Source: Octopus vulgaris
Taxonomy: Eukaryota
Assembly: GCA_951406725.2 (NCBI GenBank)
Contig: OX597842.1
Coordinates: 2,728,001 to 2,792,000, forward strand
DNA: 64,000 bases
Reading direction: 5' to 3'
This document shows, piece after piece, positions 9,034 to 10,064 of the stretch; positions within the stretch are counted from its first letter, which is position 1; each line of letters begins with the position of its first letter. A program made the position numbers and the translations under genes. Under the pieces are notes generated by a model. That model was given only the letters and a program-made list of their open reading frames with translations. It was not told the DNA's origin and ran no database searches.

Positions 9034-9036
<3 letters not shown>

Positions 9037-9494
9037 TTAGTTTTTCTTGGAGGGCTGGCCGTGATCTAGTAATCTCAAGATTAATCAGCCGAAATTACTA
9101 CGATGATCCGGTTCTTGACTGAAGACTGAGGGTTTCGAATGTCCTGTCCGTGTTTATTGTATCGTCTTCTAAGAGTTATACGTTCTTGTCCATGTTGTAT
9201 TTTTCTACATACCTTAACATATATTCCAGGCGCCACGTACCCTCTTAACATTAATGTGAGCACATATTCTTAATAACTGGTACGACTCTTTGTTTGTCTC
9301 TCTCTCTCTCTCACTTTTACTTGATCTGTCCCCTTCTCTCTCTACTCATCCTCTTTTTCTCTTCTCTTTCCTCTGATTCTTTGGTCTAATCTTCCACTAC
9401 CCTCCTAATTCTTTGTCTCGCTCTGCACTCACAGGTCAATCTTCGACACCCATCCCTTCTTTCTCTCTCTTCTCTCTCTTTGTTGCGTTTGTCC

Positions 9495-9530
<36 letters not shown>

Positions 9531-10064
9531 GTTGCTTCTCTTTCTTTTCTTTTCTCTCTTCTCTGTCACGTGACTGCTGGCCGAAATCTGCCTTTCAGCT
9601 TCTGACCAGCGTCGTGTTAACATCGTTGTTTTTCGTCCGCCGCTATAGGCATCGCCGATAAGGCTCCTTTCCTTGCGCCAGAGAAAAATTTGTTTACTTG
9701 TTATCAGTCGTAAGACACTTGTTGTTGTTTTCACCGTTAATGCTTCTGTATTTCATGTTTCTGTATTCCATTATTTTTTTGTTTTTTTATATTCGTCCCT
9801 TTTGCTGTCCTGGTGTCCGTATGCATTCGATCCTTCTTCCAGGAAATCTACGCTCCCAGCTTAGTTTTTCTAATGCTCGTTGCTTAGTTTTTCTTGGAGG
9901 GCTGGCCGTGATCTAGTAATCTCAAGATTAATCAGCCGAAATTACTACGATGATCCGGTTCTTGACTGAAGACTGAGGGTTTCGAATGTCCTGTCCGTGT
10001 TTATTGTATCGTCTTCTAAGAGTTATACGTTCTTGTCCATGTTGTATTTTTCTACATACCTTAA
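9034..10064 (+). mobile_element. Young non-coding retroelement-like unit with identical 184-bp terminal direct repeats (retrozyme/PLE-like)
   Basis: 9034-9217 is identical to 9881-10064 (offset 847); CT-rich interior; inserted in (TA)n; diverged relative at 54445-55040 (-). Confidence 0.75.

What the first reader, a model, noticed from the sequence alone, without database searches (positions are those of the whole stretch)
9034..10064. Very young 847-bp unit with identical 184-bp direct repeats in a (TA)n tract: retrozyme/Penelope-like architecture
Seen: the two 184-bp repeats are identical by eye, the interior is non-coding, CpGs are retained, there are no TG...CA LTR ends, and the unit is embedded in TA repeats. 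Established: a monomer-plus-partial-monomer layout with a ribozyme in the repeat is typical of Penelope pLTRs and of retrozymes that use circular RNA intermediates. Inference: cleavage in each repeat would release an 847-nt monomer that could circularise; the element looks recently active.
Basis: partly seen in the sequence, partly recalled or inferred. Interest (0 to 1): 0.72.

Follow-up and report, generated by a model that had tools for sequence, protein, structure and literature searches.

The report
Split-core hammerhead ribozyme in Penelope retroelement
This 1-kb non-coding repeat sits in a TA run and is likely a small passenger retrotransposon of the Penelope group; its ends carry all the pieces of a hammerhead ribozyme in a scrambled order with the catalytic strand broken in two, a layout we did not find described, which is predicted to cut the RNA into an 847-base unit.

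Summary
Observation confirmed: identical 184-bp direct repeats (9034-9217, 9881-10064), period 847, in (TA)n, non-coding, CpG intact. Rfam finds no ribozyme, and the repeat holds no type I hammerhead. It holds the complete hammerhead core in a non-circular order, with the catalytic strand broken between A9 and G10.1: the stem II strand lies 5' of the cleavage block and CUGAnGA lies last. A 73%-identical relative at 54.4-54.7 kb keeps all helices, with compensatory changes in stems I and III and the accessory helices. A descriptor fitted on these copies hits 3 window sites and 0 in 38.4 Mb of shuffles. Read by eye, 8 of 34 published Naiad consensus 3' ends (ctenophore, cnidarians, acanthocephalan, ostracod, octopus) show this split layout in unrelated sequence, and 7 show the intact type-CSG permutation, although Naiads are described as lacking canonical hammerheads. 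Best reading: a young non-autonomous Penelope-like (probably Naiad-dependent) element whose permuted hammerhead likely releases an 847-nt monomer. Cleavage, circles and the autonomous partner are untested. One raw DNA run under the main species label held almost no reads of the element.

The parts
8985..9033 (.). left (TA)n target tract
9034..9217 (+). left repeat = 5'-truncated second copy of the unit's 3' end (pseudo-LTR)
   Evidence: homology to the relative runs on upstream of the repeat boundary
9053..9125 (+). left split-core hammerhead blocks: stem II 5' strand 9053-9058, predicted cut after C9074, G12 at 9091, CUGAAGA 9119-9125; lacks the 5' strands of helices P0 and H
9218..9880 (+). 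non-coding, pyrimidine-rich body of the unit
9075..9921 (+). predicted 847-nt monomer between the two predicted cleavage sites
   Evidence: inference, cleavage not tested
9824..9899 (+). accessory 5' domain of the right ribozyme: P0 5' strand 9824-9836, hairpin H 9837-9846/9890-9899 abutting stem II; a 22-nt insertion absent from the relative lies in the H loop (about 9847-9868)
9900..9972 (+). right split-core hammerhead: stem II 9900-9905/9932-9937, helix X 9906-9913/9952-9958, stem III 9914-9920/9941-9947, predicted cut after C9921, stem I 9922-9927/9960-9965, GAAA 9938-9941, CUGAAGA 9966-9972
9975..9988 (+). P0 3' strand, closing the gap between A9 and G10.1
9881..10064 (+). right repeat = 3' end of the unit
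10065..10107 (.). right (TA)n tract
54434..55080 (-). older relative: single 3' end in a TA tract, 73% identical over 194 nt, same ribozyme layout at 54508-54650 (N17 = U at 54575), CpG o/e 0.44; 5' limit approximate

Best explanation
This is likely a young, non-autonomous Penelope-like retroelement, probably copied by a Naiad-type partner, made of one 847-bp non-coding unit plus 184 bp of a second unit in a (TA)n tract, and its 3' end carries a complete hammerhead core in a rearranged order that is predicted to self-cleave. Shown in the sequence: the order is P0 - hairpin H - stem II 5' strand - helix X - cleavage block - GAAA block - X' - stem I strand + CUGAnGA - P0'. This is the non-circular C-S-G ring order opened between A9 and G10.1. 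Inferred steps: P0 and H hold A9 next to G10.1, and X ties the tips of stems I and II. A transcript running through both repeats is cut after 9074 and 9921. The 847-nt piece is joined into a circle, in which the element body is the loop closed by P0. A partner's GIY-YIG nicks a TA run and its reverse transcriptase copies round the circle 1.2 times, which would give the identical repeats. The left copy, lacking P0 and H, could borrow them and the stem II strand from the right copy (an S-G-C order fold).
For: All core letters present (CUGAnGA, GAAA, UH) and stems I 6 bp, II 6 bp, III 7 bp, X 7 bp, H 10 bp, P0 7+5 bp. The relative keeps every helix: double changes in stem I (A-U to U-A), stem III (U-A to C-G) and in X, H and P0, a one-sided G-U to G-C change in stem II; its stem III is shorter, 4 bp. 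Descriptor written after seeing these copies: 3 full hits in the window, 0 full and 1 partial in 300 dinucleotide shuffles (38.4 Mb), 0 in 206 prokaryotic/viral loci chosen to hold the core words. The fold of 9815-9995 gives P0, H and stem II, z = -2.41, 1 of 200 shuffles as stable; the relative gives the same helices, z = -1.31. In contigs of X16 and X6, 9900-9972 shows 1 listed substitution (9956, keeps its pair as G-U) and 1 insertion, against 12 substitutions and 2 indels in 9973-10064 (uneven depth makes this suggestive only). Published Naiad consensi (PMC8557442 supplement, 3' ends read by eye): 34 of 54 inspected; 8 show the split layout in unrelated sequence (Obim, Ovul, Bfor with a 2-bp stem I, 3_Chem, 2_Movir, 4_Dst, Amil, Plae), 1 a decayed form (Esco), 7 the intact CSG order (Parc, 1/2/3_Nbra, Hcon, Hpol, Smim), 18 nothing recognisable in the 600 or so bases shown. 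Naiads prefer (TA)n and form partial tandems. CSG and SGC ribozymes cleave in vitro (PMC10085705).
Against: No cleavage, RNA-end or circle data. A break at A9/G10.1 has no tested precedent that I found; Eckert et al. state that known alignments have at most 1-2 inserted nucleotides there. Nested folding cannot hold stems I, II and III together; stem I has pairing probability 0.0, and P0 falls to about 0 in the full element and in the circular monomer. The isolated 184-nt repeat folds no better than shuffles (z 0.54 and 0.31). Primary identity to the relative is no higher in the motif (71%) than in the 3' tail (73%). No autonomous partner found: 0 RT/GIY-YIG hits among 133 window ORFs, and by eye no sequence likeness to the published octopus Naiad 3' ends or the Hydra-1_Obim hammerhead; Craig et al. 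call cephalopod Naiads long-dead remnants. Raw run X22 (same species label as the top holders, 1,934 Mb read) gave 52 partial reads, nearly all on a T-rich tract and about one on the repeat, which does not fit a high-copy family in that sample. The one on-record RNA run gave a single contig of depth 2.9 that does not reach the ribozyme.
Confidence: 0.68

Rival explanations
1. Same element and same chemistry, but the split hammerhead works only as a swapped dimer: the long X+III rod of one repeat presents the cleavage and GAAA blocks, and the other repeat supplies the stem II strand and CUGAnGA. Cleavage would then act as a sensor of tandem (more-than-unit) transcripts. This overlaps with the best explanation on everything but the fold.
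For: In the window X and III are almost continuous (0 and 4 nt between them). In Naiad-4_Dst and Naiad_Smim they form a rod that seems too long to fold back without melting (my geometric estimate from a recalled A-form rise). Known PLE hammerheads act as dimers (PMC4209133).
Against: In Naiad_Bfor and Naiad_Hpol, X (15-16 bp) matches the height of stem II + core + stem III, as a monomer needs. Single-copy SGC/CSG transcripts cleave efficiently.
Confidence: 0.3
2. The motif is a hammerhead-derived but non-cleaving structure, kept as a recognition signal for the partner's reverse transcriptase or as an RNA switch.
For: Competing hairpins can bury the cleavage site in the predicted folds. 18 of 34 inspected Naiad ends show no such motif, so it is dispensable in many. 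PLE hammerheads cleave weakly in vitro.
Against: All catalytic letters and the A15.1-U16.1 pair are kept in both window families and in 8 unrelated Naiads, which a mere binding signal would not require.
Confidence: 0.17
3. A miniature LTR element (TRIM) or LTR retrozyme with 184-bp LTRs.
For: Identical terminal direct repeats, TG start, non-coding interior of 663 bp.
Against: Ends TTAA not CA; no TGG-starting primer site just inside, and no purine tract just before, either repeat on either strand; no type III hammerhead; homology to the relative and helices P0/H straddle the repeat's 5' boundary; the relative has one repeat only; no preferred contig start or end listed (table 6; contigs are weak evidence here).
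Confidence: 0.04
4. Assembly artefact or a local tandem duplication with no biological meaning.
For: The repeats are 100% identical and flanked by microsatellites.
Against: Both junctions are present in X6 and X16 contigs, two organism labels; 20 of 24 listed runs from 10 studies hold part of the stretch.
Confidence: 0.02

Closest known systems
Type-CSG and type-SGC non-circularly permuted hammerheads (Eckert et al. 2023, PMC10085705)
   Same: Same ring order of blocks; short linker from stem I to stem II; an extra helix tying the far ends of stems I and II.
   Different: Their block C (stem I strand + CUGAnGA + stem II strand) is assumed unbreakable; here it is split, with the termini or a two-helix domain (P0, H) between A9 and G10.1. 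Theirs came from metatranscriptomes/metagenomes, none (save one GCS candidate) from genomes of known organisms; here an animal retroelement.
Naiad Penelope-like elements (Craig et al. 2021, PMC8557442)
   Same: (TA)n target, partial tandem with pseudo-LTR, pyrimidine/U-rich 3' part, and by eye the same split hammerhead layout in 8 consensi. The authors flagged 'HHR_core' and 'HHR_half_core' cases without a structure.
   Different: No ORF; 847 bp instead of 3.4-4.4 kb; no primary likeness seen to the published octopus Naiads; young, whereas cephalopod Naiads are called remnants.
Animal non-LTR retrozymes (bioRxiv 10.64898/2026.07.22.740005; Cervera and de la Pena 2020 not read)
   Same: Non-coding, PLE-derived, more than one unit, hammerhead core in each repeat, length within the 51-972 bp range reported.
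   Different: They carry type I hammerheads in full tandem units; this has 1.2 units and a permuted split core that type I descriptors miss.
Canonical PLE pseudo-LTR hammerheads (Cervera and de la Pena 2014, PMC4209133), incl. Hydra clade
   Same: [quoted passage not shown]
   Different: Type I order with a short palindromic stem III; here non-circular order with a 4-7 bp stem III.

Membership tests
Hammerhead ribozyme | core letters CUGAnGA, GAAA, UH | tested here: met
   in all three window copies
Hammerhead ribozyme | stems I, II, III around the core, with covariation | tested here: met
   two sequence families only by computation, more by eye from published Naiads
Hammerhead ribozyme | A9 followed directly (0-2 nt) by the stem II strand | tested here: not met
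   0 pairs between the letters after CUGAnGA and those before GAAA ('intact' = 0)
Hammerhead ribozyme | site-specific self-cleavage | not testable with these tools
   needs in vitro transcription
Hammerhead types I-III (Rfam) | circular block order, match to covariance models | tested here: not met
Type SGC/CSG hammerhead | non-circular block order | tested here: met
   S, G, C order
Type SGC/CSG hammerhead | uninterrupted block C | tested here: not met
Penelope-like element (non-autonomous) | partial tandem giving direct pseudo-LTRs, 5'-truncated upstream copy | tested here: met
Penelope-like element (non-autonomous) | microsatellite target, no discernible TSD | tested here: met
Penelope-like element (non-autonomous) | shares its 3' end with an RT + GIY-YIG element | tested here: inconclusive
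   no genome held; none in window; layout, not sequence, shared with Naiads
Naiad (autonomous) | ORF with N-terminal GIY-YIG and C-terminal RT | tested here: not met
Non-LTR retrozyme | tandem units each with a type I hammerhead | tested here: not met
   definition
Non-LTR retrozyme | accumulates as circular RNA | not testable with these tools
   only contigs for RNA runs
LTR retrozyme / TRIM | TG...CA ends, PBS, PPT (hallmarks partly recalled) | tested here: not met
LTR retrozyme / TRIM | 4-6 bp TSD | tested here: inconclusive
   both flanks are TA runs
DIRS/Ngaro | inverted or split direct repeats, tyrosine recombinase | tested here: not met
   one simple direct repeat; no recombinase domain

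The most novel reading that the evidence does not exclude
A seventh natural hammerhead arrangement exists, outside the six thought possible: the catalytic strand is split at A9/G10.1 and the whole retroelement body can sit in that gap. Naiad retroelements, described as lacking canonical hammerheads, in fact carry this form or its intact CSG parent across ctenophores, cnidarians, acanthocephalans, nematodes, arthropods and molluscs, and a young non-coding family here uses it to make circles.
Probability: 0.65. Interest if true: 0.87.

Novelty: new variant of a known kind. Interest (0 to 1): 0.78.

Why it matters
It would overturn the working rule that hammerhead core blocks cannot be interrupted and move non-circular RNA permutations from metagenome rarities to abundant animal retroelements. 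It would also undo the argument that Naiads thrive without hammerheads, making the open question of what ribozymes do in Penelope retrotransposition directly testable with a 180-nt transcript. Current retrozyme and hammerhead screens use type I-III descriptors and would miss this whole class.

Tried and rejected
Rfam at gathering score (whole window) and at E<=10 (element): no ribozyme; the top hits were microRNA models on TA runs. A type I reading of the CUGAAGA...GAAU stretch was rejected: no conserved stem II or stem I partner in the relative. An intact SGC reading was rejected: 0 pairs after A9. HDV-like, twister and splice-restored readings were considered by eye and dropped (the relative lacks the AG and GT needed). 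A loose pattern in metagenome and viral contigs gave 118 and 88 loci, all chance by stem pairing and by profile search; the metagenome scan covered 5 of 64 parts. A family-specific pattern gave 0 in viral and 0 in genome contigs. No whole genome is held, so copy number, partner and polymorphism were not tested. Pfam on 133 ORFs: two weak DUF hits below cut-off. No tRNA in the window. Three look-ups of earlier findings returned nothing. Run X20 (share 0.10) is no evidence of expression of the ribozyme. Lunse et al. 2017 was not held; Weinberg et al. 2015, cited for hammerheads with extra helices, was not read.

Full report
Observation. The two repeats are exact over 184 bp (9034-9217, 9881-10064; period 847) and sit between TA tracts. 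The interior is non-coding (longest frame 107 aa, no Pfam hit). CpG o/e is 0.96 against 0.38 for the window. Zero differences in 184 bp bound divergence only below 1.6%. The SINEs and microsatellites around it look octopus-like to me; that is recall, not a call result. No genome is held.

A relative in the window. BLAST finds one diverged copy on the minus strand at 54434-54626, 73% identical over 194 nt. It also ends in a TA run, has a pyrimidine-rich body and only one copy of the repeat, and has lost CpGs (o/e 0.44). Its likeness runs on upstream of the repeat's 5' edge. So the left repeat is best read as a 5'-truncated second unit, as in Penelope pseudo-LTRs, not as an LTR. LTR hallmarks fail: the ends are TG...TTAA, with no adjacent primer site or purine tract.

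The ribozyme. Rfam finds nothing. Yet each repeat holds CUGAnGA, GAAA and a UH site whose flanks pair as hammerhead stems I and III, in the order cleavage block, GAAA block, CUGAnGA block. The partner of the strand before GAAA is not the sequence after CUGAnGA (0 pairs) but a hexamer 5' of the cleavage block. Three more helices complete the picture: X (7 bp) joining the outer ends of stems II and I, a hairpin H directly abutting stem II, and P0 pairing the sequence after A9 with sequence upstream of H. The relative keeps all six helices, with double changes in I, III, X, H and P0 and a G-U to G-C change in II; its stem III is 4 bp instead of 7. A descriptor, written after seeing these copies, gives 3 hits in the window, none in 300 shuffles (38.4 Mb; 1 partial) and none in 206 unrelated loci preselected for the core words. 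Nested folding of 9815-9995 yields P0, H and II with z = -2.41; the relative yields the same helices with z = -1.31. Against this: stem I never appears in nested ensembles, P0 vanishes in full-length and circular folds, the bare repeat is no more stable than shuffles, and the motif is not more conserved in primary sequence (71%) than the 3' tail (73%) between the two families. The 5' strands of P0 and H lie outside the 184-bp repeat, so the left copy lacks them.

Other samples. 20 of 24 listed runs from 10 studies hold part of the element. I laid 4 runs on 9560-10080 only. X16 gave 589 contigs and X6 52, spread from over 99% to under 90% identity, so this is a family with subfamilies. Both junction types occur in both runs, which argues against an assembly artefact. 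Listed variants spare the core region (1 substitution that keeps its pair and 1 insertion in 9900-9972, against 12 and 2 in 9973-10064), though depth differs between these zones. Summed contig depth is no copy number, and X6 is only guessed to be RNA. The on-record RNA run X20 gave one contig of depth 2.9 outside the ribozyme. Raw DNA run X22, under the same species label as the best holders, showed next to nothing on the element in 1,934 Mb; I cannot explain this.

Published Naiads. Craig et al. (PMC8557442; passages and supplement seen) say Naiads lack canonical hammerheads, favour (TA)n, and that some show a core or 'half core' that fits no descriptor. I read by eye the 3' ends of 34 of their 54 Naiad consensi, mostly the last 600 or so bases, naming records by file order. 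Eight show the split layout, with P0 and H, in unrelated sequence: Obim and Ovul (near-identical to each other), Bfor (stem I only 2 bp), 3_Chem, 2_Movir, 4_Dst, Amil and Plae. Esco shows a decayed form. Seven show the intact C-S-G order, six of them with helix X: Parc (no X seen), 1_, 2_ and 3_Nbra, Hcon, Hpol, Smim. Eighteen show nothing that I recognised. None of this was computed. Joining the ends of the CSG form and reopening it between A9 and G10.1 gives exactly the split layout, so the two are circular permutations of one fold.

What is known. Eckert et al. (PMC10085705; results sections and passages seen) define three blocks assumed unbreakable and six orders. They show cleavage for SGC and CSG, describe a helix tying stems I and II, and found none in genomes of known organisms but one GCS candidate. 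Cervera and de la Pena (PMC4209133; parts 1-2 of 4 seen) describe type I minimal hammerheads in pLTRs, a common extra nucleotide between 9 and 10.1, and the cleave-circularise-rolling-RT model. Li et al. (bioRxiv 10.64898/2026.07.22.740005; parts 1-2 of 5 and passages seen; supplements closed) define animal retrozymes by type I motifs. Passages of PMC13725137, PMC6765202, PMC3088659, PMC10162972 and 10.64898/2026.09.16.752053 showed no split-core form. Ten library searches found no description of permuted hammerheads in Naiads or of a break at A9/G10.1. Subscription papers are not covered; Lunse 2017 and Weinberg 2015 were not read, and Eckert's supplements were not opened.

How it likely works. 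Shown: the architecture, the pairings, the family and the shared layout with Naiads. Inferred: cleavage after 9074 and 9921 frees an 847-nt monomer; ligation gives a circle in which the body is the loop of P0; a partner RT/endonuclease primes at a TA run and copies 1.2 rounds. A cut 143 nt inside the 3' end could not give full-length copies from a linear template unless the ends are rejoined or a longer tandem is copied, which favours this route. Whether the fold is a monomer or swapped between the two repeats is open. The partner is unknown; a Naiad is favoured by layout and target, but Hydra or Neptune elements also target microsatellites.

Verdict. The element is a likely non-autonomous Penelope-like family, an ordinary kind. 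Its ribozyme motif is not ordinary: a hammerhead permutation with a split catalytic strand, apparently undescribed, and shared with a clade thought to lack canonical hammerheads. New variant of a known kind; interest 0.78; confidence in the full reading 0.68.

Noticed in passing
window 54434-55080 (-): Older TA-tailed relative with the same split-core motif and one repeat only.
   Followed up: yes
PMC8557442 supplement, Naiad 3' ends: Seven nematode and spider Naiads carry intact type-CSG hammerheads, a form so far reported from two metagenome sequences.
   Followed up: partly
PMC8557442 supplement, Naiad-1/2/3_Dst and Naiad_Ppla: CUGAcGA core with other pairings around it that fit neither layout; possibly a further variant.
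   Followed up: no
window 9847-9868: Diverged 22-nt local duplication inside the loop of hairpin H, absent from the relative.
   Followed up: partly
window 8646-8983 and 10110-10265: Both flanks are pieces of the same abundant SINE-like family: a 3'-cut copy on the left and a second half on the right, so the empty site is not a simple TA run.
   Followed up: no
window 54434-54470: The relative's last 30 bases resemble a short U-rich motif near the 3' end of Naiad-4_Chem (by eye); weak, low complexity.
   Followed up: no
run X22: Raw DNA run with the main species label lacks the element almost entirely.
   Followed up: no
window 23410 (-) and 26308 (-): Two CUGAUGA...GAAA word pairs in canonical order, one next to a TA run; stems not examined.
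   Followed up: no
window 33737-34087, 12547-12997, 13045-13299: Two-copy tandem repeats of 169, 241 and 126 bp.
   Followed up: no
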